A stretch of 64,000 bases of DNA, from assembly GCA_001002765.1 (NCBI GenBank), contig LCMS01000007.1:8170-72169 (forward strand), read 5' to 3'. The DNA comes from Candidatus Uhrbacteria bacterium GW2011_GWE2_46_68. GTDB lineage: Bacteria > Patescibacteriota > Patescibacteriia > UBA9934 > GWF2-40-263. Below the pieces are notes generated by a model. It had not been told where the DNA came from and did no database searches. It was given only the letters and a program-made list of their open reading frames with translations. The position numbers and the translations under genes were made by a program. Positions 83 through 60,738 of the stretch are shown here, piece by piece. Numbering within the stretch: position 1 is the stretch's first letter; each line of letters begins with the position of its first letter.

Positions 83-967
83 ATGTCCATGATTGACACA
101 CATTGTCACGTTCACTTTCGCGCGTATCGTGAAGATATGGACAAGGTCATTTGTCGCAGTCTAGAAAAGGGGGTCAAAATGATTACAGTGGGAACCCAAC
201 TTGACACAAGTCAAAGAGGTCTGGAAGTTGCAGAGCATTATGATGGCGTGTGGGCAACCGTTGGTATGCACCCCAGTCATCTTTGTGCACAAAATTTTGT
301 GGATGATGAAGAGCTTGATCCTTCTGCACAGCAGATGATCCATACAGGTGGTCATACCTTTGACCCTGCGGATTTTTTACCTTTGGCGCGTCATCCCAAA
401 TGTGTGGCGATTGGAGAGTGTGGTTTGGATTATGTTCACATTCCTGAAAATCTGAATCGAGAAGAAGTGATCGCCAAACAAAAACAAACCGTGCGTCAGC
501 ATTTTGATCTGGCATCTGAAGTCGGGCTTCCTTTGGCCATTCATTCGCGTGAAGCACAAAAAGATCAACTCGCGCTGATCAGAGAATATATCCAAGCGGG
601 AAAGTTGGCTCGACGCGGAGTCATTCACTGCTTTACTGGAACCTTGGAAGAAGCGCAGGAATATCTGGAAACAGGTTTTCTCATTTCTTTTACCGGCATT
701 ATCACATTTTCTCCACGCAAAAAGGATTTGCTTGTAGGCGGACTCTCTCCGCTTCAAGAAGTCGTACGACAATTACCTTTGGAATCCATTATGATCGAAA
801 CCGATGCTCCATATATTTCCCCCGAGCCTTATCGAGGAAAACGCAATGAGCCTTGGCAAGTGGAGTTTGTGGCAAGAAAAATCGCCGAGATCAAAAAAAT
901 TTCTTTTGAAGAAGTTTGCGAGGTGACCACAAAAAACGCGGAAAAACTTTTTGGTATACACGTGTAG
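83..967 (+). CDS. tatD: TatD-family metal-dependent hydrolase/DNase
   Basis: 294-aa ORF; N-terminal IDTHCHVHF metal-binding motif and TIM-barrel hydrolase signature spacing typical of TatD (PF01026). Confidence 0.85.
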   Translation: MSMIDTHCHVHFRAYREDMDKVICRSLEKGVKMITVGTQLDTSQRGLEVAEHYDGVWATVGMHPSHLCAQNFVDDEELDPSAQQMIHTGGHTFDPADFLPLARHPKCVAIGECGLDYVHIPENLNREEVIAKQKQTVRQHFDLASEVGLPLAIHSREAQKDQLALIREYIQAGKLARRGVIHCFTGTLEEAQEYLETGFLISFTGIITFSPRKKDLLVGGLSPLQEVVRQLPLESIMIETDAPYISPEPYRGKRNEPWQVEFVARKIAEIKKISFEEVCEVTTKNAEKLFGIHV

Positions 968-984
968 ATCCCATTTTTGAGAAC

Positions 985-1027
985 GAAAAAACGGCTGGCA
1001 CTGCGTGTGCTAGCCGTTTGTTGTAGC
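985..1027 (-). terminator. Rho-independent terminator (bidirectional hairpin between convergent genes)
   Basis: A-run then imperfect 12-bp stem aacggctggcac/gtgctagccgtt (989-1018). On the minus strand it is followed by TTTTTTCGTTCTC, 20 nt after the stop of the 1038-2432 gene. Confidence 0.6.
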
Positions 1028-1037
1028 TTAGAAGCAG

Positions 1038-2432
1038 CTACTCGTTGGTATCGTCGGGCATCTCTGGCGGAGCCTCGCTGTCGGCGATCTGTTCGGCCGC
1101 AGGCACCTGGTCGGGTGTCTCATCGGGCCGTACCTCTTCCTCGGGAGGCTTGGCTTCCTCCTGCGGGGCATCGGGAGTCTTCTCGCACTTGGTCTTGAAA
1201 ATCCAGGCACGCAGGGCGCGGTGCCAGGGGTTTCGAGCATCGAAGACCACCTCACTACCGAAGATCAGGCTCATGCGAGCCGTCACGATCGGGGCGACCA
1301 GATCGCCCTCCTTGACCTGGCGGTACCAGTCCCGCCGCTCGCGTCCCTGGAGTGCTTCCGCCTGGGTGGGGAAGGCAACTCCGGTCCAGGAAATCGTGGG
1401 ATCCGTGATCCTGTCCCAGCGCAGCCGTACCTCCTCGAGGATCACAGGCTCGGCCTGACGAAGCAGGCTCACAGCCAACTGGTGGCACATGGGAACCGTG
1501 TCCGTCTGCACGGTCAATCCGGAGTCCAAAACGACCTTTTGGAGACGTTCATCACCAGGGTTGCCGATGATCCTCGCGATCATCTGACGCACGGTCCAAG
1601 GGGACTTGCTATAGGGATCAGGATCGATCTGTTCGATCGTCACACCCAGAAGGGCGAAGGGGTCGATGCCGGCCCGATCTTCCACATCCATGTTGATCTC
1701 GAAGCGATCGAGGTTCACATCCTTGGCCGCGCCAAGGACCGTGATATAGGCCCGTCCTTCCATGAACTTGTTGACTGCAAACGCGGTCTCGATCGGCTTG
1801 CCCTTTCCTGAAGTGGGCAAGTTGTCACTCATCTTATCGAGGAACAGCTGCATGCCCATGCACGATCCGATGAAATACCCGGCCTTCTGATCTTCCCCGT
1901 GGGTGGGGGTGAAGGCAAAGACGATCGAACCCATGGTCCGCAGGATATGCGGAATCTCGGGGATCATGGTCTGGCCCTCACGATCGAGGAGTCGATTCAA
2001 TTGATCGAGGAGATCAGGGTTGGCGTATCCGAAGGGGAGGAGCTTCCAGTACTGACCCTTGCGATCCCAGGGCGCCGGACGCATGAGAAGACCTGGCACA
2101 CCGCCTTGGGTCAAGGGATGACCCTTCTTGAACTCAACACCGAAAGGATTGAAGAGGCGTACGCGCACGACATGTGCGCGGCCATCTTCGACGATCCTGG
2201 CATTGGCCTGGAGGACGACATCATCGCCCACCTTGACCGGGGCGAAGTTCACGGCCACGGCCTGGTACTTGTTGGTGCCAGGCTGGCGCAAGGTGCGCTC
2301 CTTGACCTCTTGGGCTCCACCCTTGACGGTTTCACCCGCCAAGGTGAACAGGTCGAGGATGATGCGGGTCCAGGCAATCGGAAGAGAGTCGACCGCAAGC
2401 GCGGTCTTCGGGAGCTCATGGGTTGTGGTCAC
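1038..2432 (-). CDS. hypothetical protein, compositionally foreign (high GC), acidic Pro-rich C-terminal tail
   Basis: 464-aa ORF spanning the whole GC-rich block; GTG start at 2432 preceded by AGGAGG 5-6 nt upstream; balanced protein-like composition; no family recognised by eye. Confidence 0.6.
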   Translation of the reverse strand: MTTTHELPKTALAVDSLPIAWTRIILDLFTLAGETVKGGAQEVKERTLRQPGTNKYQAVAVNFAPVKVGDDVVLQANARIVEDGRAHVVRVRLFNPFGVEFKKGHPLTQGGVPGLLMRPAPWDRKGQYWKLLPFGYANPDLLDQLNRLLDREGQTMIPEIPHILRTMGSIVFAFTPTHGEDQKAGYFIGSCMGMQLFLDKMSDNLPTSGKGKPIETAFAVNKFMEGRAYITVLGAAKDVNLDRFEINMDVEDRAGIDPFALLGVTIEQIDPDPYSKSPWTVRQMIARIIGNPGDERLQKVVLDSGLTVQTDTVPMCHQLAVSLLRQAEPVILEEVRLRWDRITDPTISWTGVAFPTQAEALQGRERRDWYRQVKEGDLVAPIVTARMSLIFGSEVVFDARNPWHRALRAWIFKTKCEKTPDAPQEEAKPPEEEVRPDETPDQVPAAEQIADSEAPPEMPDDTNE

Positions 2433-2590
2433 GAGGACCTCCTTGTTTTGGGGTTAAAGGAACGTTTGCCGCAGTTGGCAGCCAAAGACAGTAGGAAAAA
2501 TAAGGGGTTTAGTCAAGGTACAAGTTACCACCTTTTGACAGAACCCCTTATTTTTGTTAGGTTTTAGTGCTTTCTTTCCGGAGGAAACCC

Positions 2591-3466
2591 ATGAAAGAAG
2601 CCATTGAAGCTCTTTTCACAGACAATGGGAAACCCACGCAAGCCCACGTGGATGCACTCAAGGGAGTGCGCTCACTTAATGATGTGAGCGCAGATGGAAT
2701 TGATCCCGATGCCATGGATCGCTTTTCTTATTTTCTCGACGCCCCTAAGGAAACGGCAGAAAGTCAGGCAGATGAAGATCGTCGCAGCCTTCTTCTTGCC
2801 CTTGCCAGCCATCTGGCTCCTACATCAAAAAACGAAAAACCTGATGAACCAAAAGAGCCGCGGCGTCCAATCGTACCTTCGAAACAAGAAAAAGAAGAAA
2901 AAAAGAAGGGAGTTCGAGACCCCAGAGAAAGTATACTTGGAGCATTTGATACAGTAGAAATCGAAGAACAAACAGGAGAGGATGAGGAGGAAGAAGTGGA
3001 AGAAGAGCGTCCGCAAAGAGGGAATCGTCGGGGACAACAAAACGGCGACCGTCCCAACGGACGCACACGAGATCAAGATGATCAGCAATATCGTCGTGAT
3101 CGTTGGCAACAAAGAAAGGATGAAAAAAAAGATCCTCAACCTCCACGGCCTGCTATTGTACAGGGAAGCCAAGATCATCTTCTCGCTCGTGTTCAAGCGG
3201 ATCCTCAATGGGTTGAGTTGCGGAATTACATTTTCGGAGAAATCTTGATTGTGCGAGGAAAAGATTCCACAAAGGTTGCCGGAGCCCTTTGGCAACTCTC
3301 TGAGCTTACTGATAGGTTGGTACATGGAGAAGTCATGGCAAGCCGATACACACACAATATGCGCGTTTTGGCCGGTGAAATGGTAACGAATCTTCACCTG
3401 CACAAAGATATCGAAAATCCCGCATGGTTTGAGAAACGCTACGGAGCGCTCCCCAAGAGTGTCTAA
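2591..3466 (+). CDS. hypothetical protein with central K/E/R/D/Q-rich low-complexity region
   Basis: ATG at 2591 with GGAGG 6 nt upstream (the longer ORF from 2567 lacks an RBS); ordered C-terminal ~130 aa. Confidence 0.55.
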   Translation: MKEAIEALFTDNGKPTQAHVDALKGVRSLNDVSADGIDPDAMDRFSYFLDAPKETAESQADEDRRSLLLALASHLAPTSKNEKPDEPKEPRRPIVPSKQEKEEKKKGVRDPRESILGAFDTVEIEEQTGEDEEEEVEEERPQRGNRRGQQNGDRPNGRTRDQDDQQYRRDRWQQRKDEKKDPQPPRPAIVQGSQDHLLARVQADPQWVELRNYIFGEILIVRGKDSTKVAGALWQLSELTDRLVHGEVMASRYTHNMRVLAGEMVTNLHLHKDIENPAWFEKRYGALPKSV

Positions 3467-3468
3467 GA

Positions 3469-3500
3469 CCGCCACGCCAGCGGTCTTTTACTTTTTTGAT
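3469..3500 (+). terminator. Rho-independent terminator
   Basis: aagaccgc-cacgcca-gcggtctt hairpin followed by TTACTTTTTTG immediately after the stop at 3466. Confidence 0.6.
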
Positions 3501-3564
3501 AAACAAAGGGGTCAGGTCTTTACCTTTTACCTTATCCAATATTTTGGCTTTAAACTTGCTTATT

Positions 3565-3584
3565 CCGCGCAGCTTGCTGCGCGG
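3565..3584. repeat. GC-rich palindromic hairpin CCGCGCAGC-TT-GCTGCGCGG (copy 1)
   Basis: Perfect palindrome inside the IR-bounded element; a second near-identical copy lies 240 bp downstream. Confidence 0.55.
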
Positions 3585-3804
3585 TTACCGCTTAAGTACG
3601 ATAGGAGGGTATGAGAGCGGTCAGAACAACAGAACACAATGTTTATCAAAGAACTTTGGGGCGGTGAACTCTGGACGGATGGTTTCTTTGTCTCCACGGT
3701 TGGTGAAGGAGGAAACCGAGACGTGATTCGGATATATGTTGAGAAACAAGGAAACAAATCAGATATCACCCAGCTTAAGCTTTTCAATTTTTAACCTCTG
3801 ATAC

Positions 3805-3824
3805 CGTGCAGCTTGCTGCGCGGA
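3805..3824. repeat. GC-rich palindromic hairpin CCGTGCAGC-TT-GCTGCGCGG (copy 2, stem extended by aacctc/gaggtt)
   Basis: Direct repeat of the 3565 hairpin with one substitution. Confidence 0.55.
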
Positions 3825-4037
3825 GGTTCATATAAAACTCATTATTTTTATTTATTGAATTAATAAGGTTTTTGAAACAAAGTTGATTATGCGTTGTTTT
3901 ACTCATCACCTGTGAAAAAGTTTGATCTCTTCGTATATAGTCTCAAAAAACAAGAAATATCCTCCGTTAACACAACAAAAGGGTAAAAGGTAAAGACCTG
4001 ACCCCCTTTGATATCCCCAGTTCACCCCTTTTCACCG

Positions 4038-4066
4038 TTGACCCAAGGAGGGAAAAAACCTATAAT
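4038..4066 (+). promoter_or_regulatory. sigma70-type promoter for the atp operon
   Basis: TTGACC (4038-4043), 17-nt spacer, TATAAT (4061-4066); ~22 nt upstream of the atpI-like start. Confidence 0.65.
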
Positions 4067-4088
4067 AACGGCGCCATTTGGCCTTTCT

Positions 4089-4370
4089 ATGTCTAATGAG
4101 GCTGTCTACTATCGTCTTGCTATGCGCATTTTTGCTGATTTTGGCATTACCATTGCCATTCCTTCGGTAGGTGCTGCTCTCCTTGGATCATGGCTTGATG
4201 ATCGGTATGAGACCGAGCCTCGATATCTCATCATCCTCCTGATTCTCGCTCTTGTTCTCACAGCCTTTTCCATTTATCGCAAAGCCACTTATTACGGACG
4301 CGTTTTCAATTCCTTATCAAATCCTTCGGACAAAACCTCTTCTTATGACGATCCCTCCAGCCGCCGCTGA
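4089..4370 (+). CDS. atpI: AtpI/AtpZ-like small membrane protein preceding atpB
   Basis: 93 aa from ATG 4089; two predicted TM helices; LLGSWLDDRYETEP motif resembles the AtpZ/AtpI family; first gene of the atp operon. The longer ORF from 4008 has no start support. Confidence 0.5.
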   Translation: MSNEAVYYRLAMRIFADFGITIAIPSVGAALLGSWLDDRYETEPRYLIILLILALVLTAFSIYRKATYYGRVFNSLSNPSDKTSSYDDPSSRR

Positions 4371-5145
4371 ACCTCTTTGGCACCTTGGCAGTCTTCCCCT
4401 TACCAATGCCATGATAAACGGTTGGATTGCAGTCGTCTTTTTTGTTTGTGTGGCTTTTGTTCTTCGCCGCGCGTTACAGGAAAAACCAAAAGGTTTGCAA
4501 AATCTTGCCGAGGCTTTGGTGGAATTTTTTCTCGATCAGATCGAAAAGGTTACAGGAGATAAAGAACGTGCTCGCAAATTTCTTCCTCTTATCGGTACGA
4601 TTTTTCTCTTCATCCTCTTTTCCAACTGGCTTGGACTATTGCCGGGCACGGGATCGATCGGGATTTGGGAAATGATTCATGGGGAAAAGGAATTGGTACC
4701 GTTGTTGCGTCCCGCAGCCAGCGATCTGAACCTGACCCTTGCTATCGCCATATTCGCTGTGTTTGCTTCTCATGTTTTCGGCATCCTTTCTATCGGACCT
4801 TTTCATCATGTCAGCAAATTCGTCAATATTGCCGGTATTATCAAAGCGCTTAAAAAAGGACCCATGGCCATTATTGTCGCTTGCATTGAGTTTGGTGTGG
4901 GATTTATTGAGATCATCAGCGAAATCGCCAAGGTACTTTCCCTTTCTCTCCGGTTATTTGGAAATATTTTCGCAGGAGAGGTGCTCATGACCGTGATGCT
5001 TGGTCTTTTTTCTCTTTTTCTCCCCATCCCTTTTATCTTTCTTGAAATTTTGGTTGGAGCCATTCAAGCGACCGTATTTGCCATGTTAACCTTGGCCTAT
5101 CTCACCGTTGCCACGACTCCACACACACAAGAAGAACATGCATAA
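4345..5145 (+). CDS. atpB: F0F1 ATP synthase subunit a
   Basis: Multi-TM protein with LRLFGNIFAGE (conserved Arg of subunit a); start taken at ATG 4345 (MTIPPAA), overlapping the atpI-like stop. Confidence 0.9.
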   Translation: MTIPPAAAEPLWHLGSLPLTNAMINGWIAVVFFVCVAFVLRRALQEKPKGLQNLAEALVEFFLDQIEKVTGDKERARKFLPLIGTIFLFILFSNWLGLLPGTGSIGIWEMIHGEKELVPLLRPAASDLNLTLAIAIFAVFASHVFGILSIGPFHHVSKFVNIAGIIKALKKGPMAIIVACIEFGVGFIEIISEIAKVLSLSLRLFGNIFAGEVLMTVMLGLFSLFLPIPFIFLEILVGAIQATVFAMLTLAYLTVATTPHTQEEHA

Positions 5146-5204
5146 TTGTCTTTTGTCGCTTGTTTTTAAACAGACGAGAAAAGATAATCTTTAATCCTTA
5201 CCCT

Positions 5205-5423
5205 ATGGACGCAGAAACTATTGCGATCTTGATCAAAGGAGTGACCATCGCCTTTGGCGGTCTTGGACCGGCCATTGGTATCGGGATGATTGGAGCCAAA
5301 GCTATGGAAGGCATCGGCCGCAACCCCGAAGCTGCAGGTAAATTGTTCGTGCCTATGCTTTTGGGCATGGCCTTTGCTGAGGCTATTGCGATTTATTCCT
5401 TGGTCGTTTCTTTCACATTGTAA
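5205..5423 (+). CDS. atpE: F0F1 ATP synthase subunit c
   Basis: 72-aa two-helix proteolipid: GIGMIGAKAMEGIGRNPEA loop and ion-binding Glu in AFAEAIAIY; start at MDAETIA. Confidence 0.9.
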   Translation: MDAETIAILIKGVTIAFGGLGPAIGIGMIGAKAMEGIGRNPEAAGKLFVPMLLGMAFAEAIAIYSLVVSFTL

Positions 5424-5486
5424 TGTCAAACGACTCCAGGTTGCCTCAAAGGAGGCAGCCCTCGGCTGTTTGTTATTACATTTTCT

Positions 5487-6032
5487 ATGTCACAAGAAGT
5501 CGCTCTCATTCACGAAGCCGCGGAGGCTGTGGAAACCACCGGAGGTTTGGGAACCCTTGGAATCAATGTCAAAATTTTTCTGGCGCAACTCGTCAATTTT
5601 ACGATTGTGCTTTTGGTGCTTTGGCGTTGGGCTTATCGTCCCATTGTAAAACTTCTGGAAGATCGTCAGAAAAAGGTGGAAAAAAGCCTTCAAGATGCTG
5701 CAGACATTGAAAAACGCGTTGTGAGTTTAGAGGAGGAACGTAAAAGTATTTTGAGTCAGGCAAAACACGAAGCACATGTGGTTTTAGAAAAAGTGCAAAC
5801 TGATGCCGAGGTTCGTCGCGTTGAACTTCTTGCGAAGGCAAAAGAAGAAGTGTCTCAAGTGGTGCATCAGGGGAAAGTACAATTGCAAGCAGAAAAAGAA
5901 GCCATGTTGCGCGAGACGCGTCAAGAAATTGTAAATCTTGCCATTGAATCTGCACGTAAAATATTGGAAGAATCCATTTCCGAGAAAAAATCTCAAGCTC
6001 TCGCGGAAGAGGTGATAGAAAAAATGTCTTGA
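5487..6032 (+). CDS. atpF: F0F1 ATP synthase subunit b
   Basis: N-terminal TM helix then long charged coiled-coil; position between atpE and atpH. Confidence 0.85.
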   Translation: MSQEVALIHEAAEAVETTGGLGTLGINVKIFLAQLVNFTIVLLVLWRWAYRPIVKLLEDRQKKVEKSLQDAADIEKRVVSLEEERKSILSQAKHEAHVVLEKVQTDAEVRRVELLAKAKEEVSQVVHQGKVQLQAEKEAMLRETRQEIVNLAIESARKILEESISEKKSQALAEEVIEKMS

Positions 6033-26355: not shown

Positions 26356-27768
26356 ATGCGTCAATGGATTGCTTTTTTAAGTGTTGTCTCCATTTGTACT
26401 TCTCTTACTCCCCTCCCCCTCTTTGCAGAAACCGAGGTGGATTACAATTATCTTCTCGGGGACGATGAACTCACGGATATGACGGCCATGGATTTTGAAA
26501 CCCTCGAGGCCTTCTTAACTCGCGGGTCACTTGCAGACTATGAAACCGAGGATGTAAATGGACATTGGGAATCTGCCGCTCAAGTTATTTGGGATTCTGC
26601 TCAAGCATTTGATCTCAACCCGCAATTCATCTTGACGATGTTGCAAAAAGAACAAAGTCTCATTGAGGATCCTGATCCATCACAAGATCAGCTCGCATGG
26701 GCCATGGGCTATGCGGTTTGTGACGATTGTTCCAAATCTGATCCTTTTATTCAAAAATACAAAGGCTTTGGTAATCAAATCTATTACGCATCCAAGCGCA
26801 TTCGTGAATCTTTTTTGGATGATCTGGAATCTCGCGGTTATACCGAAAACGGTCTGGGACCCGGAATCGAAATCGAAATTGATGACATCTTGGTTGTGCC
26901 TGCCAATAATGCCACCTCGATTCTCTATGCCTACACACCGCATCTTCAAGGTAATGAAAATTTTTCTTTAATCTGGGATCGTTGGTTCACTCACACCTAT
27001 CCAAGCGGTACTTTACTTCAAGACAAAGAAACCGGCGGCATCTGGTATATCCAATTTGGCCGACGTCGCGCCATCACCTCTCGATCTGCTTATCTATCCC
27101 GCTTCCCTACTCAACCGGTCATCGCGGTATCTGAATCTGTCATCAATCAATATCCCGAGGGTGATCCCATCAGTTTTCCTAACTACTCTCTCTTACGCTC
27201 TCCCCGAGGTACGGTGTATTTGATTGTGGATGATACGCGTCGAGGAATTGATTCCCAAGAGGCGTTCCGTGCTATTGGATTTAACTCGGACGAAATCATT
27301 GATGTGACATGGGACGATCTTGCTGTTTATGAAGAAGGAGAACCTATCACGATCGCTTCTGTCTCTCCCGGCGGATCTTTGATGCAAAACACGACAACCG
27401 GAGGAGTCTATTTTGTGGAAGAAGGAAAAAAATATCCGATCATGTCCAAACAAATTTTAAAAGCGCGTTTTGATGGATGGGCTATTTTTCCACAATCACC
27501 GGAGGATTTGGAAGCCTATCCCACAGGTGATTATGTCACCTTCCCCGATGGAACCTTGGTCTTAGCCGAAGGATCACCTGACGTCTTTGTGATCTCCGAA
27601 GGTAAACGCCGCCTGATTCCGGATGAATCCACTTTTTTGGCTTATGGCTGGGAGTGGCCACAAATCATCGTAACCAACGAACGCTCAGTTCTCCTCCAAT
27701 CTTTGGGAGAAGAAATACCTTCGATTTTAGATCAGTCTGAATCCACTATTTTTGATACGGCTTATTAA
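26356..27768 (+). CDS. secreted protein with four ~55-aa C-terminal repeats (putative cell-envelope binding)
   Basis: Signal peptide (MRQWIAFLSVVSICTSLTPLPLFA). Four degenerate repeats of the form G-T/S-L...GG-I/V-Y/W...G-K/R-R-R-x-I (GTLLQDKETGGIWYIQFGRRRAI, GTVYLIVDDTRRGI, GSLMQNTTTGGVYFVEEGKKYPI, GTLVLAEGSPDVFVISEGKRRLI). Stop overlaps the first paralog. Confidence 0.6.
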   Translation: MRQWIAFLSVVSICTSLTPLPLFAETEVDYNYLLGDDELTDMTAMDFETLEAFLTRGSLADYETEDVNGHWESAAQVIWDSAQAFDLNPQFILTMLQKEQSLIEDPDPSQDQLAWAMGYAVCDDCSKSDPFIQKYKGFGNQIYYASKRIRESFLDDLESRGYTENGLGPGIEIEIDDILVVPANNATSILYAYTPHLQGNENFSLIWDRWFTHTYPSGTLLQDKETGGIWYIQFGRRRAITSRSAYLSRFPTQPVIAVSESVINQYPEGDPISFPNYSLLRSPRGTVYLIVDDTRRGIDSQEAFRAIGFNSDEIIDVTWDDLAVYEEGEPITIASVSPGGSLMQNTTTGGVYFVEEGKKYPIMSKQILKARFDGWAIFPQSPEDLEAYPTGDYVTFPDGTLVLAEGSPDVFVISEGKRRLIPDESTFLAYGWEWPQIIVTNERSVLLQSLGEEIPSILDQSESTIFDTAY

Positions 27769-27775
27769 GTCGCTT

Positions 27776-29149
27776 ATGTTTCCTTTTTCACACTCTTCCC
27801 GTCGCGATGGTATAGATCGATCACCTTCCGAATCCGTCGCTCATCCCTTTGCCGCCCCTGCGGAGGCAGTCCCGCCTGTGGCGGATCCCGCCGTAGGCGG
27901 GAGGGTCCGGCGTACTTCGGCAAACCTAAGCGAAGCCATCATGGATTCGGTTTCAAGTGTCCGTGATTCTCTTCACGAACGTTATCGCTCACACTTCAAT
28001 ATTCTCCGCAGGGAGATTATTGATTTTACAAAAGCTCACGACATTCCAATAGAATCTCTTGCCAAACCAGATCTCCTCCGTGAAGCTGCCGGCAAACTCT
28101 CCACCCAAGATCTTGAGCGACTTGCCAATCTTCTTGAACGCTTTGAGTACCTCATTGTCAAAAAAGAACCTGGGAAAGAAAAACTCCCCGAACATCTTCA
28201 AGAAATTGAGCGTCTTTACCATCTTGAGGATCAATACACTTCCCAAGTGACATTTCTTGAATACGTAGGGATTCTCAAAGAAGGAGCCATTATTGGGATA
28301 GATGGTCACGAGTACCCCATCCCAAAGCTTGAACAAATAGCTCTCCGTCTATTTGAACGCCGTGGCGAACTTTCCGCTAAGCACGACCAAGGTTTTACCA
28401 AACTTCTTTTGGTTCCTTTTGGAATGAACCTCGATATGCTTATCTCCACTCTCAAACAATTCCTTCTGGATTATAAAGGGTCCCATCCTGATTTTATGTT
28501 TGACACAGATGATCCCATCTCAAACATAAGAAAGCGCCTGAAAAGATCCGATACTACGGACACAGAAGCTTTTCAAAATGCAAATGGAGGAGATCATCAA
28601 GAACTTGTTTACTACCCACTGTTTTTTAATGAAAATCATCAAGGTAAAACAAAAACGAAAATCCTTGAAGATCAAAGTGTTAACCCAGCTTCCTTTCCTG
28701 GCTGGACAGTCCATTTGTTTCAACCTTCTGATCCTTCAAATCAACATTCCCTAGGCTTTGCCCCCATTCCCGAAGAAAAAGGAACAACCCAGGGAAATGA
28801 AATTCCTCGACAAGATTTGAAAACAGGAAAATACAGCTGTGAATATCTCGATATTCTTGGAAGTGCGAAACAACAAGATTCTCCTTATTGTCATGAATCC
28901 GGCCTCACCCCAGAGGACTGGATTAGTGCTTTCATGATGCATCTTCATGAAACCGGAAAACCTTTAGACGAGAATAAAAGTTGTTATCTTGTGGGAGCTT
29001 TTTTCCCTTCCCTTGGTATTCCGCGAGCTTCTTGGAGTATAGATTATATGGACGGGCGTAGTTATGGGAGTAATCGTGTATCTTTGAATATTCAATATAT
29101 TCACGGGACATCTTCTGACATAGGCTCTCGTTTTTCAGTGATTATTTAG
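27776..29149 (+). CDS. tandem paralog 1 of an unrecognised protein family
   Basis: ATG at 27776 (the ORF-track start at 27752 is TTG); conserved core EAIMDSVSSVRDSL...DLERLANLLERFEYL...GFTKLLLVPFGM shared with the next two genes; no signal peptide. Confidence 0.7.
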   Translation: MFPFSHSSRRDGIDRSPSESVAHPFAAPAEAVPPVADPAVGGRVRRTSANLSEAIMDSVSSVRDSLHERYRSHFNILRREIIDFTKAHDIPIESLAKPDLLREAAGKLSTQDLERLANLLERFEYLIVKKEPGKEKLPEHLQEIERLYHLEDQYTSQVTFLEYVGILKEGAIIGIDGHEYPIPKLEQIALRLFERRGELSAKHDQGFTKLLLVPFGMNLDMLISTLKQFLLDYKGSHPDFMFDTDDPISNIRKRLKRSDTTDTEAFQNANGGDHQELVYYPLFFNENHQGKTKTKILEDQSVNPASFPGWTVHLFQPSDPSNQHSLGFAPIPEEKGTTQGNEIPRQDLKTGKYSCEYLDILGSAKQQDSPYCHESGLTPEDWISAFMMHLHETGKPLDENKSCYLVGAFFPSLGIPRASWSIDYMDGRSYGSNRVSLNIQYIHGTSSDIGSRFSVII

Positions 29150-29157
29150 CTCTATTT

Positions 29158-30624
29158 ATGTCTCCTCTCCGTTCATCTTTCGAATCCACCCCATCCGTCA
29201 TCCCCACAGAGGCACATTCCTCCAATGACCGCCATCCCCGCGGAGGCGGGGATCCATCGTCTTCTGCGCTTCTTGGCGAAGCCATCATGGATTCTGTTTC
29301 AAGTGTCCGTGATTCTCTTCCCGAACGTTATCGCTCACACTTCAATATTCTCCGCAGCGAGATTATTGATTTCACAAAAGCTCACGGGATTCCAAAAGAA
29401 TCTCTTGGCAAGCCTGACCTCCTCCGCGAGGCGACCTGTAAACTTTCCACTTCAGATCTTGAACGACTTGCCAATCTTCTCGAACGCTTTGAGTATCTTG
29501 TGAAACACAAAGAACTCATGAAAGAAGACTATACTGAAGCCCTCGAGTATGTGGAGAAGTATTATCACCTCAAAAAGCAATACGATTCCCAAGTCTCCCT
29601 TCTTGAACAAGTAGGTATTCTTCATCCAAAGAAAAAATCAAAGCACATACAAAAACTTTCTACTTTTTTTCGCTCCCTTCTTCCTTATGGAAAAAAGAAA
29701 AGACCCGAAGTTTCAACTGTTCCTGAGACCCCAGAGATACTTTGTATAACTGGTATTGATGACAACGAGTATCCCATTCCCACACTTGAGCAGATTGCTT
29801 CTCGTCTCTTTGAGCGTCGTGAAACTCTAAAAACCAAACACGACCAAGGCTTTACCAAACTCCTCCTTGTTCCCTTTGGGATGAGTCTTGATAGTCTCCG
29901 AGAAACACTCAAACAATTCCTTCTTAAGTATAAGAAGGGTCATCCCTCTTTTGGTCTTGATACTGATAATCCTCTCTACACATGGTTAAACTATCAGGGA
30001 GCAGACATGGGGGATTTCCCAAACCTTGTCTATTATCCACAGTTTCTTACAAAAAAAGGTCATGGAGGGAAGACAAAAGCACAGATACTCAAAGAACAAT
30101 CCGAAGGACAATGGACCCCTGCCTTCGCAGGGGTGGCAGGAGGGAGTGGAACAAGGTTCCATGGCTGGATCGTTCATCTTCTCCAACCATCAAACCCAGA
30201 CTCACAAGACATCGAAGTTCCCATGGGCTTTGCCCTTATTCCTCGTGAAGGCCAAGAAACACCCAAAGGTGACCTCACCCCTCGTCCTTCTCTTGAAGCA
30301 GGTAAATCTCCTGATGAATATCTTTCCATTCTTCAAAAAGCTCAAGATGACAAAGGCTCTCCCTATCATGGTGAAACAGGCATGACTCCCGAAGATTGGA
30401 TCATGGCCTTTATGCTTCATCTTTCTGAAACAGGAAAACCACTGGACAACTTTGCAAATGGCATGGAGAGCATCTCTTACCTTACGGGAGCTTTTTTTCT
30501 TTCTTCCAGCCTTGTGCCAGGCGTGTATTGGAGCAGTGTTGATGATGGTCGGGCTTTTCTTGGCGGGGACGGATATTACGATCGAGCCAGCAATTTCGGC
30601 GCGCGATCTTCGGTGATCGTTTAA
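29158..30624 (+). CDS. tandem paralog 2 of the same family
   Basis: 488 aa; starts 8 nt after paralog 1; ends ...ARSSVIV-stop. Confidence 0.75.
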   Translation: MSPLRSSFESTPSVIPTEAHSSNDRHPRGGGDPSSSALLGEAIMDSVSSVRDSLPERYRSHFNILRSEIIDFTKAHGIPKESLGKPDLLREATCKLSTSDLERLANLLERFEYLVKHKELMKEDYTEALEYVEKYYHLKKQYDSQVSLLEQVGILHPKKKSKHIQKLSTFFRSLLPYGKKKRPEVSTVPETPEILCITGIDDNEYPIPTLEQIASRLFERRETLKTKHDQGFTKLLLVPFGMSLDSLRETLKQFLLKYKKGHPSFGLDTDNPLYTWLNYQGADMGDFPNLVYYPQFLTKKGHGGKTKAQILKEQSEGQWTPAFAGVAGGSGTRFHGWIVHLLQPSNPDSQDIEVPMGFALIPREGQETPKGDLTPRPSLEAGKSPDEYLSILQKAQDDKGSPYHGETGMTPEDWIMAFMLHLSETGKPLDNFANGMESISYLTGAFFLSSSLVPGVYWSSVDDGRAFLGGDGYYDRASNFGARSSVIV

Positions 30625-30630
30625 TCTTTG

Positions 30631-31915
30631 ATGTCTATGTCTCTTTTTCGACCAACTTTTGAATCCTCTCCCTCCGACACCCCTGCGGAGGCAGGGGTCC
30701 AGCGTACTTCGGCAAACTTCCACGAAGCCATCATGGATTCGATTTCAAGTGTTCGCGATTCTCTTCCCAAACAACACCGCGCGCACTTTGAAACTCTGCG
30801 TCAAGAGATCATCATTTTTACCGAGGTTCACGGGATTCCAAAAGAATCTCTTGGCAAGCCCGACCTCCTGCGCGAGGTGACCGGCAAACTCTCCACTTCA
30901 GATCTTGAGCGACTTGCCAATCTTCTCGAACGTTTTGAATATCTGCTTAAGAATGGGGAACCAAAGAAAGAAGAGATAGACCTTGTCAAAGCCATTGAGT
31001 ATGCAAAGGAGCATTATCATCTTCGTGAGCAATACGATTCTCAAGTAGAGCTTCTTGAGGAAGTGGGCATCCTTAAAGAAGGAGTCATCCTAGGCATAGA
31101 CGGTAACACCTATCCCATTCCCACCTTGGAACAAATAGCCGTCCGTCTTTTTGAACGACGTGAGACTCTCGAGACTAAACACAACCAAGGCTTTACCAAA
31201 CTCCTCCTCGTTCCCTTTGGCATGAGTCTTGATAGTCTCCAAGAAACACTCGAACAATTTCTTCTCGAGTACAAGAAGAATAATCCCTCCTTTAATCTAA
31301 ATATGGATGATCCTCTCTGCACATGGTCAGTATATCAAAGAGCAGACATCGGAGATTCCCCCAAGCTTGTCTATGAGCCACAGTCTTTTACAGAAGAAGG
31401 TCATGGGGGGAAGACAAAAGCACAGATACTCGAAGAACAATCCGAAGGACGATGGACCCCTGCCTTTGCAGGGGTGAAAGGAGAGAAGGGATTGGGAACC
31501 CCAGGTTGGACTGTTCATCTTCTCCAACCATCAAACCCGAACGAACAAGACATCGAAACTCCCAAAGGCTTTGCTCCCATTCCCAGAGAAGGACGGGGAA
31601 CACCTCAAGAAAATCTCGTCCCTCGACATCCCCTTGAAGCAGGTAAATCTCCCAATGAATATCTTTCCATTCTTCAAAATGCTCAAGGTGATAAAGACTC
31701 TCCCTATCATGGTGAAACAGGCATGACTCCCGAAGATTGGATCGAACCCCACAAACAAAGAATGTATCTCTTACCTTACAGGAGCTTTTTTTCGTTCCTC
31801 CATCGCTGTGCCTTGCATGTATTGGTGTCGCGGCAATCGTCAGGCCGACCTCGACAGGGATGATCCTCGTATTCGGGATGGGAACATTGGTTTGCGGTCT
31901 TCGGTGATCGTTTAA
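30631..31915 (+). pseudogene. tandem paralog 3; apparent frameshift near 31740-31765
   Basis: Matches paralog 2 through ...GETGMTPEDWI, then the frame slips relative to paralog 2. The conserved C-terminus (ISYLTGAFF...DDPRIRDGNIGLRSSVIV-stop at 31913-31915) continues in the +1 frame; the called ORF ends early at 31863. Confidence 0.5.
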
Positions 31916-59308: not shown

Positions 59309-59379
59309 TTTGACTCCTCGTTCTTTTTATGACTACAATAACGCGCGTTCTTTTTCCCTTTTCACGGAGTGCTACAAAT

Positions 59380-59661
59380 ATGCGCAATCGTAACTCGACC
59401 TACGAAGACATCGCACATTTTCTTGAAAGCAGGAAACAACATCTAGAACTGTTGTTCTGCACTCTGATTACCACACCACTCTTTTCTTGCGCTCTTTACG
59501 AATCTGGAAATCGGATTCTTTTTCTTTGCGTGACCACCATTGGGATTGTCTTTTGCGTCATCTATGTGCTCTTCATCTGCTGGCATACATGGAATCTCTG
59601 GTACCTACGTCATCCCTGTCCTGATGAAGACACCCAAGAACAAATTTCCACGCGCTCCTAA
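59380..59661 (+). CDS. small membrane protein, hypothetical
   Basis: Two hydrophobic helices; followed directly by a strong plus-strand terminator; no RBS support. Confidence 0.35.
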   Translation: MRNRNSTYEDIAHFLESRKQHLELLFCTLITTPLFSCALYESGNRILFLCVTTIGIVFCVIYVLFICWHTWNLWYLRHPCPDEDTQEQISTRS

Positions 59662-59683
59662 GCGCCCCAGACGCCGCACCACA

Positions 59684-59720
59684 AAACCGCCCACGAGGGG
59701 CGGTTTTTCTTTTATTTTTT
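59684..59720 (+). terminator. Rho-independent terminator
   Basis: aaaccgccc-acgag-gggcggttt hairpin followed by TTTCTTTTATTTTTT. Confidence 0.7.
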
Positions 59721-59738
59721 CCAAAACGGGGTCAGAAC

Positions 59739-59948
59739 GGGGTCAGGTCGTGAATCGTAGCGTCTTTAATAAAGCTTAATATTGTCAAAGCACTGTTTCT
59801 TAAATAAATACATTGTACAAATGAAAGAATCTAAAAAATCTCAACAAAATTTTATTATTTGAACAAAGACATTAAGATAAAATTTCAACGTTTTATAGCC
59901 CTAAAGCTAATAAAGTTAACTTAACGCTACGATTCACGACCTGACCCC
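59739..59948. repeat. noncoding element bounded by perfect 25-bp inverted repeats, sharing its outer 11 bp with the 3504-4010 element
   Basis: ggggtcaggtcgtgaatcgtagcgt (59739-59763) is the exact reverse complement of acgctacgattcacgacctgacccc (59924-59948). Interior 160 bp is very AT-rich. Outer termini GGGGTCAGGTC...GACCTGACCCC are identical to those of the first element. Confidence 0.6.
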
Positions 59949-59958
59949 CCTAACCCCC

Positions 59959-60738
59959 CTAAAAAAACAAAATCAAAAATCCAAGAACGACGCGGGCGAC
60001 GGCGATCCATGCATATCCGGCGCGACGTAAAAACATCAACAAAAACTTGATGGTAAAAAAAGCAGAAATACAAGCGCTTGCCCATCCAACCATGATAGGT
60101 ACCCAATCCACAGATCCTCCTTGACTTACCAGAATAAACAGATGATATCCGCCGGCAGCCGCAATCGCGGGAATACCCAGCAAAAAGGAAAAACGTGTTG
60201 CTGTCTCGCGCGAAAGTCCACTTACCAATCCGGCGCTGATGGTTATCCCCGATCGAGACGTTCCTGGAATCAAAGAAATGACTTGAGCGCATCCTGTCAC
60301 GAAAGCTTGTTTCCAACCAGTTTTTTCCACGCTCGTCACATTTTTCCTTCCCCATCGATCAGAGGCATACAACACAATGCCCCACACGATAAAGGACGCG
60401 GCCACCACTTCCTTCGCCCGCAAACTCGTCTCAACAAAATCTTGCGCAAAAAATCCAATTAAAAAAACCGGGAATGTCGCAATCAAAATCTTCCATCCCA
60501 ATCCTCCCCATACGCGATCTTTTTTTATCATCCCTACACACATCCGCCGTACATCTCCTGACAAAGCAATGAGCACAGCGGCCAAAGTCCCCAAATGGAT
60601 AAATGCATCAAATGACAATCCTTGCTCTTCCCATCCAAGCCACTGTGGCACCAATACCAAAAAACCAGAACTCGAGATCGGAAGAAATTCGGCAACACCT
60701 TGCACGAGCCCCAAAATAAACGCGTGAAAAATACTCAT
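59959..60738 (-). CDS. uppP: undecaprenyl-diphosphatase
   Basis: 8-TM BacA/UppP family; GVAEFLPISSSG and PGTSRSG motifs. Confidence 0.92.
   Translation of the reverse strand: MSIFHAFILGLVQGVAEFLPISSSGFLVLVPQWLGWEEQGLSFDAFIHLGTLAAVLIALSGDVRRMCVGMIKKDRVWGGLGWKILIATFPVFLIGFFAQDFVETSLRAKEVVAASFIVWGIVLYASDRWGRKNVTSVEKTGWKQAFVTGCAQVISLIPGTSRSGITISAGLVSGLSRETATRFSFLLGIPAIAAAGGYHLFILVSQGGSVDWVPIMVGWASACISAFFTIKFLLMFLRRAGYAWIAVARVVLGFLILFF

What the first reader, a model, noticed from the sequence alone, without database searches (positions are those of the whole stretch)
59739..59948. Second inverted-repeat-bounded element sharing the same outermost 11 bp (GGGGTCAGGTC...GACCTGACCCC)
A perfect 25-bp inverted repeat (59739-59763 and 59924-59948) encloses a 160-bp, roughly 80% AT segment. 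It lies between convergent genes, 11 nt beyond the uppP stop. Its outer 11 nt on each side are identical to the outer 11 nt of the 3504-4010 element. The subterminal sequence and interior differ. Conserved termini with divergent interiors suggest a common recognition site, either a transposase or recombinase end, or a DNA-binding-protein site, rather than a simple duplication. A direct repeat ACGGGGTCAG x2 precedes the left arm.
Basis: seen in the sequence. Interest (0 to 1): 0.6.

Follow-up and report, generated by a model that had tools for sequence, protein, structure and literature searches.

The report
Miniature tyrosine-transposase inverted-repeat element
The 210-bp inverted-repeat element after uppP is a gene-less miniature relative of a known but little-studied mobile element, the "TIRtron", whose full-length copies carry a single-strand-DNA (IS200-like) tyrosine transposase between the same repeat ends; it is a new example, not a new kind of thing.

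Summary
A perfect 25-bp inverted repeat (59739-59763 / 59924-59948) encloses 160 bp of 22% GC DNA. Its outer 11 nt, GGGGTCAGGTC, also cap the element at 3508-4005.

The 11-mer fits the GGGGWSAS consensus of the terminal inverted repeats (TIRs) that flank TIRYT genes. TIRYTs are RAYT-like Y1/HUH transposases with a C-terminal HTH ("TIRtrons", Di Nocera 2013; TnpA_REP subclass 2.1, Quentin 2018).

Main evidence:
I expect about one by chance.
- Compact elements of 0.9-1.2 kb with the same ends encode a TIRYT of 277-297 aa. One has arms identical to the 3508-4005 element. Two have arms 24/25 and 17/25 identical to this one.
- Four of four TIRYT genes chosen by protein similarity alone carry the 11-mer at their ends.
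- There is no target-site duplication.
- A relative with 73% identical UppP has an empty site. A 77% relative has a different TIR hairpin at the same site.

No TIRYT gene lies in the window. Mobilisation in trans is inferred, not shown. Verdict: new member of a known kind, modest interest.

The parts
59739..59763 (+). Left arm (TIR) of the element. The tip GGGGTCAGGTC is 59739-59749. The lineage-specific part GTGAATCGTAGCGT is 59750-59763.
   Evidence: The arm is 24/25 identical to the TIR of the TIRYT-encoding element L213 8385-9290 and shares its first 17 nt with L248.
59764..59923 (.). Interior of 160 bp at 21.9% GC. It holds no TIRYT remnant and no promoter-like site. Its origin is unknown.
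   Evidence: GC; no tblastn or blastn match to TIRYT genes or TIRtrons; no promoter-like site inside; no Rfam family. There is only subterminal similarity to the 188-bp copy in L150.
59924..59948 (-). Right arm (TIR), the perfect reverse complement of the left arm.
   Evidence: As single-stranded DNA the two arms are predicted to form a 25-bp stem: MFE -42.9 kcal/mol, z = -8.6 against 200 shuffles.
59728..59735 (+). Partial outer copy of the tip (GGGGTCAG), 3 nt outside the left arm.
   Evidence: Similar partial tips occur in the 25-nt flanks of 31 of 169 elements elsewhere.
59949..59962 (-). Right-flank mirror of the partial tip. CCCCCCTAA occurs twice (59945-59953 and 59954-59962), and the reverse complement contains GGGGTTAG. 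The second copy holds the uppP stop codon at 59959-61.
   Evidence: Read directly from the sequence. It pairs with the left partial tip in the predicted fold.
59683..59707 (+). Intrinsic terminator hairpin shared by the convergent genes. The element sits between the uppP stop codon and this terminator.
   Evidence: In the relative with the empty site (L244/L245) the equivalent terminator follows the uppP stop after 15 nt.
3508..3531 (+). Left arm of the sister element (E1): GGGGTCAGGTCTTTACCTTTTACC.
   Evidence: It is identical to both TIRs of the 926-bp TIRYT-encoding element L192 397-1322 / L252.
3982..4005 (-). Right arm of the sister element (E1).
   Evidence: With the 5 interior bases next to it (3977-3981) it is 29 nt identical to the left end of L192.
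3639..3794 (+). C-terminal fragment (51 aa) of an ordinary IS200-type TnpA inside E1. It is flanked by two copies of the hairpin CCGCGCAGCTTGCTGCGCGG (3564-3585, 3803-3824). It is a separate nested remnant, not the TIRYT.
   Evidence: Pfam Y1_Tnp 1.2e-6, profile positions 89-121 of 121; hairpins (pair I10).

Best explanation
The 59739-59948 element is a non-autonomous "TIR dimer": two inverted copies of the terminal repeat of a TIRtron. A TIRtron is a compact mobile unit of about 0.9 kb made of TIR, TIRYT gene, TIR. TIRYT is a RAYT-like Y1/HUH tyrosine transposase with a C-terminal helix-turn-helix.

Shown here:
- The arms belong to this TIR family.
- Full-length units with the same or nearly the same arms encode TIRYTs with an intact HUH motif (NHYHL) and a Tyr in a conserved RY..LNPVR stretch.
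- Such genes are common in Candidatus Uhrbacteria, the window's lineage.
- Copies with the same arms sit at other loci as solo arms, compact hairpins and 190-210-bp units.
- The uppP site is empty in a relative.
- There is no target-site duplication.

Inferred, by analogy with IS200/IS605 TnpA and E. coli TnpA_REP, which act on single-stranded DNA hairpins:
- When the region is single-stranded, for example on the lagging-strand template, the two arms pair into a 25-bp stem.
- A TIRYT supplied in trans recognises the stem. The invariant 11-12-nt tip would be the catalytic or cleavage context. The lineage-specific inner 13-14 bp would be read by the HTH domain.
- The enzyme cuts and rejoins at the base of the stem, moving the unit without a duplication.

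In its present place the element lies in the uppP 3' untranslated region, upstream of the shared terminator. It may act there only as a passive RNA or DNA hairpin.
For: - Tip motif. GGGGTCAG fits the GGGGWSAS consensus reported for TIRs flanking TIRYT genes (PMC3733652; restated for TnpA_REP subclass 2.1 with HTH_23, HTH_28 or DnaA_C tails in PMC6006769).
- Abundance. They come from Acidobacteriota, Burkholderiales, Vibrio, Arcobacter, Actinomycetota, Elusimicrobia, Atribacterota and others. My arithmetic gives a chance expectation of about 1 (596e9 x 31 / 4^22).
- Enriched protein. Clustering the ORFs of those loci gave one family lying between inverted 11-mers (L062, L081, L085, L096, L105). 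It matches Pfam Y1_Tnp at 2e-13 with HTH_28/HTH_23, and NCBIfam REP-associated tyrosine transposase at 81.2 bits against a cutoff of 80.
- Deletion derivatives. Some 200-bp elements retain TIRYT N-terminal coding fragments (L035, L062, L071). The L081 miniature shares the TIRYT-proximal end sequence of the full unit 2.4 kb away.
- Matching arms. A metagenome scan with an arm pattern covering both window elements found full units. L192 is 926 bp with a 289-aa TIRYT and arms identical to E1. L174 has one arm mismatch to E1. L213 is 906 bp with a 277-aa TIRYT and an arm 24/25 identical to this element.
- Independent test. Four of four TIRYT genes picked only by protein similarity (three Uhrbacteria assemblies and one other contig) are bracketed by TIRs with this tip. 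L248 reads GGGGTCAGGTCGTGAATTGACGG.
- Same environment. The TIRYT with E1-identical arms comes from the same Rifle aquifer project as the window.
- Other loci. The same 25-nt arm occurs in L150 (188-bp unit), L178 (59-bp hairpin), and L147 and L198 (solo arms).
- Site occupancy. It is empty in L244/L245, and holds a different perfect TIR hairpin in L241.
- No target-site duplication in 169 elements compared with shuffled flank pairs.
- Strong predicted ssDNA stem, z = -8.6.
Against: - No TIRYT gene or remnant is in the 64-kb window or inside either element. The rest of the genome could not be read, so a cognate enzyme in this organism is not shown.
- The 160-bp AT-rich interior is unrelated to any TIRtron, so descent by internal deletion is not demonstrated for this copy.
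- All nine assemblies checked carry the element in one orientation: eight have the 290-bp stretch base-for-base identical, and L131 aligns at 100%. There is therefore no direct sign of recent movement.
- Each TIRtron recovered repeatedly sat at a single locus.
- To my knowledge no TIRYT has been tested biochemically. The literature searches here surfaced no such work. Quentin et al. report finding no REP-like sequences next to subclass 2.1 genes.
- The hairpin-recognition and HTH-reading steps are analogy, not data.
Confidence: 0.8

Rival explanations
1. It is a classical MITE of a DDE transposon. Tn3-family ends also begin GGGG, so this could be a Tn3-derived miniature element moved by cut- or copy-and-paste.
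For: It has perfect terminal inverted repeats, small size, no coding capacity and a GGGG tip.
Against: There is no target-site duplication at this element, nor statistically in 169 family members. Every full-length unit recovered with these ends encodes a Y1/HUH protein, never a DDE enzyme. The arms are 24-25 bp, not about 38 bp, and lack a consistent internal TAAG.
Confidence: 0.03
2. It is an invertible DNA switch (inverton). A site-specific recombinase would flip the AT-rich segment between the inverted repeats to turn a promoter on or off.
For: Inverted repeats flank a short AT-rich segment, and two loci share repeat cores, as with invertons served by one global invertase.
Against: Eight independent assemblies and one JGI contig show a single orientation. 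No sigma-70-like promoter lies inside. Either orientation would read antisense into convergent gene ends. The arms are shared with transposase-bearing units, solo arms and 59-bp hairpins, which cannot be switches.
Confidence: 0.03
3. Whatever its origin, the element is now kept for a host function as a structured 3'-UTR or terminator-proximal hairpin. It could stabilise uppP mRNA or insulate the convergent genes, as described for REP sequences.
For: It lies between the uppP stop codon and the shared terminator. A relative has another TIR hairpin at exactly the same place. The arms are perfectly complementary while the interior is not conserved. Tips are depleted from long open frames: 51% inside against 87% background, a crude measure.
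Against: The 73% relative has no element, with the terminator directly after uppP. There is no Rfam match and no expression data. Perfect arms are equally expected for a young insertion.
Confidence: 0.12
4. It is a chance palindrome, or a local duplication unrelated to the other element.
For: None beyond the small number of copies in the window.
Against: Four exact 11-mers sit at exactly the four element ends, against 0.76 expected even with one mismatch allowed. More than 120 paired loci were found in other genomes.
Confidence: 0.01

Closest known systems
TIRtrons and TIR repeats associated with TIRYT transposases (Di Nocera, De Gregorio & Rocco 2013, PMC3733652), equal to TnpA_REP subclass 2.1 with C-terminal HTH/DnaA_C (Quentin et al. 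2018, PMC6006769)
   Same: The tip GGGGTCAG fits the GGGGWSAS consensus. The same arms bracket Y1/HUH genes with HTH tails. The repeats occur as solo, dimer and grouped copies, as that paper describes. No REP-type GTAG tag is present.
   Different: The host is a Candidatus Uhrbacteria (CPR/Patescibacteria) genome, a group not among those named in the passages of those papers that I read. This copy has a 160-bp AT-rich filler, whereas the commonest layout is a short loop. The conserved tip is longer than published: 11 nt was fixed by the search, and position 12 is T in 87% of 246 distinct arms. No TIRYT gene was seen in the window.
REPINs / REP-BIME elements mobilised by RAYTs (TnpA_REP)
   Same: They are non-autonomous inverted doublets predicted to fold into a hairpin. 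They are extragenic, often just after genes. They are associated with a RAYT-like Y1 transposase and make no target-site duplication.
   Different: A single arm here is not itself a palindrome and has no 5' GTAG or GTGG tag. The tip is conserved across phyla, whereas REPs are species-specific. The full-length unit looks like a compact insertion sequence rather than a domesticated single-copy gene.
IS200/IS605 insertion sequences (Y1 TnpA; IS608, ISDra2)
   Same: The catalytic family is the same (Pfam Y1_Tnp, HUH plus Tyr). The chemistry is presumed to be on single-stranded DNA, and there is no target-site duplication.
   Different: IS200/IS605 ends are subterminal hairpins on one strand with no terminal inverted repeats. 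TIRtrons have 24-25-bp TIRs and an extra HTH domain. A genuine IS200 remnant with such hairpins is nested in the sister element at 3564-3824.
Tn3-derived inverted-repeat miniature elements (TIMEs) and other DDE-type MITEs
   Same: They have GGGG-initiated terminal inverted repeats around a short non-coding interior. This comparison is from my own knowledge of Tn3 ends.
   Different: This family makes no 5-bp duplication, has shorter arms, and its partner gene is a Y1 transposase, not a DDE one.

Membership tests
TIRYT-associated TIR repeats (TIRtron family) | The inverted repeat begins with the motif GGGGWSAS | tested here: met
   Both arms begin GGGGTCAG. The consensus is from PMC3733652 and PMC6006769.
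TIRYT-associated TIR repeats (TIRtron family) | The same repeats bracket a RAYT-like Y1/HUH transposase gene (TIRYT), typically with a C-terminal HTH | tested here: met
   L213 has an arm 24/25 identical and L248 shares the first 17 nt with this element. L192 and L252 arms are identical to the sister element. The proteins match Y1_Tnp, HTH_28 and NCBIfam REP_Tyr_transpos. Four of four TIRYT genes chosen by protein alone carry the tip.
TIRYT-associated TIR repeats (TIRtron family) | A cognate TIRYT gene is present in the same genome | not testable with these tools
   None is in the 64-kb window, and the remainder of the MAG (GCA_003506835.1) could not be read. A TIRYT with arms identical to the sister element occurs in the same Rifle project, and TIRYTs are common in Uhrbacteria.
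TIRYT-associated TIR repeats (TIRtron family) | The repeats form a dispersed family of solo, dimeric or grouped copies | tested here: met
   There are two elements in the window. The same 25-nt arm occurs at four other loci as a 188-bp unit, a 59-bp hairpin and solo arms. The size classes are and nested arrays.
TIRYT-associated TIR repeats (TIRtron family) | Insertion without target-site duplication, as expected for Y1 transposases | tested here: met
   Adjacent direct repeats average 0.44 nt observed against 0.38 in shuffled flank pairs over 169 elements. None is present at this element.
REP / REPIN (RAYT-mobilised) | Each unit is itself a short imperfect palindrome carrying a 5' GTAG-type tag | tested here: not met
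   A single 25-nt arm has no self-complementarity and starts GGGG. Only the pair forms a stem.
REP / REPIN (RAYT-mobilised) | Two inverted units form a hairpin-capable doublet in extragenic DNA | tested here: met
   There is a 25-bp predicted stem with z = -8.6, and the location is intergenic between convergent genes.
DDE-type MITE (including Tn3-derived TIMEs) | Target-site duplication flanking the TIRs, and TIRs shared with a DDE-transposase element | tested here: not met
   There is no duplication. All full-length partners encode Y1 proteins.
Invertible promoter (inverton) | Both orientations are present in populations, and there is a promoter inside | tested here: not met
   Nine assemblies show one orientation, and no promoter-like site lies inside. 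Raw reads were not available, so minority inversion is not excluded.
IS200/IS605 | Subterminal hairpins on one strand, no TIRs, and a TnpA of about 130-150 aa | tested here: not met
   The element is bounded by a perfect TIR. Only the nested fragment in the sister element (3564-3824) has IS200 features.

The most novel reading that the evidence does not exclude
TIRtrons may be a very large, cross-phylum insertion-sequence family that is barely catalogued. Their Y1/HUH transposase would work on a "panhandle": the two TIRs of one strand pair, the invariant 12-nt tip GGGGTCAGGTCT forms the cleavage context, and the lineage-specific inner stem is read by the HTH.

The tip may also be the preferred insertion target. 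That would explain three things seen here. Nested >>>...<<< arrays occur with a 27-31-nt period. Partial tips flank 18% of elements. A tandem "partial tip + 3-6 nt" duplication is seen at this element, L241, L150 and L196.

CPR genomes of about 1 Mb would then carry active populations of such hairpin elements. This would be a transposition geometry not described for HUH enzymes.
Probability: 0.25. Interest if true: 0.6.

Novelty: new member of a known kind. Interest (0 to 1): 0.33.

Why it matters
For annotating this genome, the result turns two odd palindromes into recognisable mobile-element relics. It shows that a reduced Candidatus Uhrbacteria genome carries repeats of the TIRYT type.

More broadly, the searches suggest the 2013 description (26 genes, 8-nt consensus) understates the family:
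- The tip is invariant over 11-12 nt in many phyla.
- Thousands of TIRYT homologues exist.
- Miniature derivatives are common.

No TIRYT has been studied biochemically as far as I know. These compact 0.9-kb units with defined 25-bp ends would make simple substrates for testing how an HUH tyrosine transposase handles terminal inverted repeats. None of this makes the present element itself surprising.

Tried and rejected
- Rfam scan of the whole window at gathering thresholds: no family.
- Similarity between the two interiors, or to anything else in the window: none beyond the arms.
- A small ORF or promoter inside the 160-bp interior: only a 13-codon ATG frame without a ribosome-binding site (read by eye) and no promoter-like site. 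Dropped.
- Literature search for the 11-mer itself: only eukaryotic or viral primers and probes.
Only the 165-195 nt spacing class was scanned in genomes, so counts at other spacings come from the arm-based metagenome scan.
- TIRYT remnants in the window or inside either element, using five non-CPR and six CPR-type proteins: nothing.
- Multiple insertion sites for one TIRtron: P0122 and P0121 each occur at a single locus in all contigs recovered.
- P0239 could not be looked up.
- Target-site duplication, whether adjacent or within 25 nt: no signal above shuffled controls.
- Tn3-type end: considered because of the GGGG tip and a TAAG just inside the right arm. Rejected on arm length, absence of duplication and the Y1 partner genes.
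- Integron attC and CRISPR-like readings: considered from the array layout. Rejected because there is no R''/R' core, and the units are 24 nt with about 7-nt spacers flanking a Y1 gene.

Full report
**Observation**

The window sequence shows GGGGTCAGGTCGTGAATCGTAGCGT at 59739-59763 and its exact reverse complement at 59924-59948. The repeat finder reports this pair as 25 nt, 100% complementary and 160 nt apart. The interior is 21.9% GC, against 44.9% for the window.

The 11-mer GGGGTCAGGTC occurs exactly four times, at the four ends of this element and of the one at 3508-4005. With one mismatch allowed there are 5 matches against 0.76 expected, and no shuffle reaches 5. The interiors of the two elements are unrelated.

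uppP (59959-60738, minus strand; Pfam BacA 2.7e-70) ends 10 nt from the right arm. The convergent ORF 59329-59661 ends in an intrinsic terminator at 59683-59707. The direct repeat ACGGGGTCAG x2 is real, and the right flank has a mirror-image counterpart.

**Source**

Identical copies of the uppP protein lie on contigs from the Rifle aquifer project and on the MAG GCA_003506835.1. NCBI names that protein as from Candidatus Uhrbacteria, a CPR/Patescibacteria lineage. All eight retrieved contigs carry the 290-bp stretch around the element base-for-base identical and in the same orientation.

**What the ends are**

I scanned one genome per species (185,579 species) for GGGGTCAGGTC, 165-195 nt, GACCTGACCCC. 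My own arithmetic gives about one chance match for 22 fixed bases and 31 spacings in 596 Gb.

The hits come from many groups: Acidobacteriota, Burkholderiales (many copies in Massilia and other Oxalobacteraceae), Vibrio, Pseudoalteromonas, Arcobacter, Desulfobacterota, Nitrospira, Actinomycetota, Elusimicrobia, Atribacterota and others. In every locus the 11-mer is followed by a lineage-specific stretch of about 13 nt that is mirrored in the partner arm. Among 246 distinct arms, position 12 is T in 87% and positions 13-24 carry little information.

Many loci show nested arrays, with several direct copies followed by the same number of inverted copies at a 27-31-nt period.

**The partner gene**

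All-against-all clustering of ORFs from those loci gave one family that lies between inverted 11-mers (L062, L081, L085, L096, L105). It matches Pfam Y1_Tnp (2e-13) plus HTH_28/HTH_23. It matches NCBIfam "REP-associated tyrosine transposase" at 81.2 bits against a cutoff of 80; a second member scores 72.6.

L085 4572-5485 is a complete 914-bp unit whose TIRs abut the start and stop codons. Several 200-bp elements still contain the first 20-40 codons of this gene (L035, L062, L071). The L081 miniature shares the gene-proximal end sequence of the full unit 2.4 kb away. At least some miniatures are therefore deletion derivatives.

**Literature**

Di Nocera et al. 2013 named exactly this arrangement. 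"TIRtrons" are RAYT-like genes (TIRYT) flanked by terminal inverted repeats that share GGGGWSAS, with the TIRs found as single, dimeric or grouped repeats (PMC3733652). Quentin et al. 2018 placed 20 of the 26 TIRYTs in TnpA_REP subclass 2.1. That subclass is characterised by C-terminal HTH_23, HTH_28 or DnaA_C domains (PMC6006769). GGGGTCAG fits the consensus. I found no paper that quotes the 11-mer in a bacterial context, and few papers mention TIRYTs at all.

**Link to the two window elements**

I scanned the metagenome collection with a degenerate 24-mer covering both arm types. It returned more than 112 loci. They include the following:

| Locus | Size | TIRYT | Arms |
|---|---|---|---|
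| L192 397-1322 | 926 bp | 289 aa | both TIRs identical to the 3508-4005 element |
| L174 | 950 bp | 297 aa | one mismatch to the 3508-4005 element |
| L213 8385-9290 | 906 bp | 277 aa | right TIR 24/25 identical to this element |

L213 is probably the locus of protein P0232, which NCBI names as Candidatus Uhrbacteria GW2011_GWD2_52_7. I infer that only from the equal length and contig size.

A protein search with the L192 TIRYT found 7,641 homologues at E <= 1e-20 among the 8,000 candidates scored. Many are named as Uhrbacteria or Patescibacteria. As a test independent of the 11-mer, I fetched four of them chosen only from that list. All four are bracketed by TIRs carrying the tip. L248 and L251 are exact on both sides. 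L247 and L249 are exact on one side and slightly degenerate on the other. L248 (Uhrbacteria) reads GGGGTCAGGTCGTGAATTGACGG, sharing 17 nt with this element.

The TIRYT with arms identical to the sister element occurs in the same Rifle project as the window. These proteins keep the HUH motif (NHYHL) and a Tyr in a conserved RY..LNPVR stretch, which I take to be the catalytic one.

**What this copy is and is not**

Neither the window nor the two elements contain any TIRYT coding remnant. The sister element instead holds a 51-aa C-terminal fragment of an ordinary IS200 TnpA between two CCGCGCAGCTTGCTGCGCGG hairpins, which is a separate nested relic.

The same 25-nt arm occurs at four other loci:
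- L150: a 188-bp AT-rich unit with subterminal similarity and a similar partial-tip flank, in a related organism.
- L178: a 59-bp hairpin.
- L147 and L198: solo arms.

In the arm-selected metagenome set, 25 inverted pairs span 50-80 bp, 13 span 80-120 bp, 6 span 160-260 bp and 8 span 800-1300 bp, and there are many solo arms. The 210-bp layout is therefore a minority form.

**Site comparison**

| Relative | UppP identity | State of the site |
|---|---|---|
| L241 | 77% | 4 nt after the stop codon lies a different, perfect TIR hairpin: GGGGTCAGGCCTGGTTATCGACTT, a 10-nt loop, then its complement. The tip variant is mirrored in both arms. |
| L244/L245 | 73% | no element; the terminator follows the stop codon after 15 nt |

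The site is therefore variably occupied. Whether the two occupied states share one ancestral insertion or arose independently cannot be decided.

**Mechanism**

Over 169 non-redundant elements there is no target-site duplication above shuffled controls. That fits a Y1 enzyme and argues against a DDE enzyme. As single-stranded DNA the element folds into the 25-bp stem, extended by the flanking partial tips (-42.9 kcal/mol, z = -8.6).

By analogy with IS608 TnpA and E. coli TnpA_REP, which are established ssDNA hairpin enzymes, I infer the following. A TIRYT acting in trans recognises the paired arms on single-stranded DNA. The invariant tip would be the catalytic context, and the HTH would read the variable inner stem. 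These steps are inference. To my knowledge no TIRYT has been assayed.

**Rivals**

- An inverton is disfavoured. There is one orientation in nine assemblies, no internal promoter, and the same arms occur as solo copies and around a transposase gene.
- A DDE or Tn3-type MITE is disfavoured by the lack of duplication and by the partner genes.
- A secondary host role as a 3'-UTR hairpin remains possible. The element sits between uppP and its terminator, a hairpin occupies the same site in a relative, and tips are under-represented in long open frames (51% against 87%, a crude measure). It is untested, and the empty site in another relative shows the element is dispensable.

**Verdict**

The element is a new, gene-less member of the known TIRYT/TIRtron repeat family, in a CPR genome.

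Three observations go beyond the papers I read: the 11-12-nt invariant tip, its breadth across phyla, and the abundance of miniature and nested forms. These describe the family, not this locus. Interest is modest.

Noticed in passing
window 3564-3824 (inside the 3508-4005 element): There is a 51-aa C-terminal fragment of an ordinary IS200-type TnpA (3639-3794, Pfam Y1_Tnp 1.2e-6). In it the residue expected to be the catalytic Tyr reads Phe (LWTDGFF). It is bracketed by two copies of the perfect hairpin CCGCGCAGCTTGCTGCGCGG. So an IS200/IS605 relic is nested inside a TIRYT-type TIR pair, two different Y1 systems in one spot.
   Followed up: partly
window 27752-31863: Three tandem paralogues of a hypothetical protein of about 465-490 aa lie at 27752-29149, 29158-30624 and 30628-31863. 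Their DNA repeats are 72-85% identical, and the third copy appears to end early. A related contig (L150) carries the same family at 73-80% nucleotide identity. The 35-nt inverted repeats reported at 30101-31476 lie within these genes.
   Followed up: partly
window 60083-60148 versus locus L131: One JGI contig (L131) is otherwise 100% identical but lacks 66 bp inside uppP, an in-frame loss of 22 codons. This may correspond to the 247-aa variant P0004. It could be population polymorphism or an assembly artefact.
   Followed up: no
window 59726-59749 and 59938-59962; L241 4830-4850; L150 about 4250-4275; L196 about 5840-5870: A recurrent flank signature appears outside one arm. The last 8-10 nt of the tip plus the next 3-6 nt are tandemly duplicated: CTGACCCC-GTT x2 here, GCCTGACCCC-TAA x2 in L241, CTGACCCC(C)-TCT x2 in L150, and GACCCC-AAAGCA x2 in L196. 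Partial tips occur in the 25-nt flanks of 31 of 169 elements. This may be a footprint of the insertion chemistry or of tip-targeted insertion. It is unexplained.
   Followed up: partly
loci L048, L111, L096, L082, L044, L060 and others (genome contigs): Nested arrays of 2-8 direct TIR units are followed by a similar number of inverted units at a 27-31-nt period. In L111 the 4-nt A-tract between units stays A-rich on the same strand on both sides. It would therefore form A-A internal loops in a hairpin rather than pairs.
   Followed up: partly
L085 (Betaproteobacteria bacterium CG2_30_68_42), 157-5485: Five TIR-bounded units lie within 5.4 kb: four of about 200-245 bp at intervals of about 700-940 bp, plus one full TIRtron. 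It was not checked whether the intervening genes form a cassette-like array.
   Followed up: no
L192 397-1322 and L174 1622-2571: The TIRYT reading frame runs into the TIR itself, with the stop codon at element positions 13-15. The last residues (…KGKR / …GGKG) are encoded by the lineage-specific part of the repeat. In L085 the start codon also abuts the other TIR. Protein tail and DNA end are therefore physically coupled.
   Followed up: no
L241 4785-4842 versus window 59739-59948: The orthologous site just after the uppP stop holds a TIR hairpin with different inner arms. It also has a tip variant (GGGGTCAGGCC) that is present compensatorily in both arms.
   Followed up: partly
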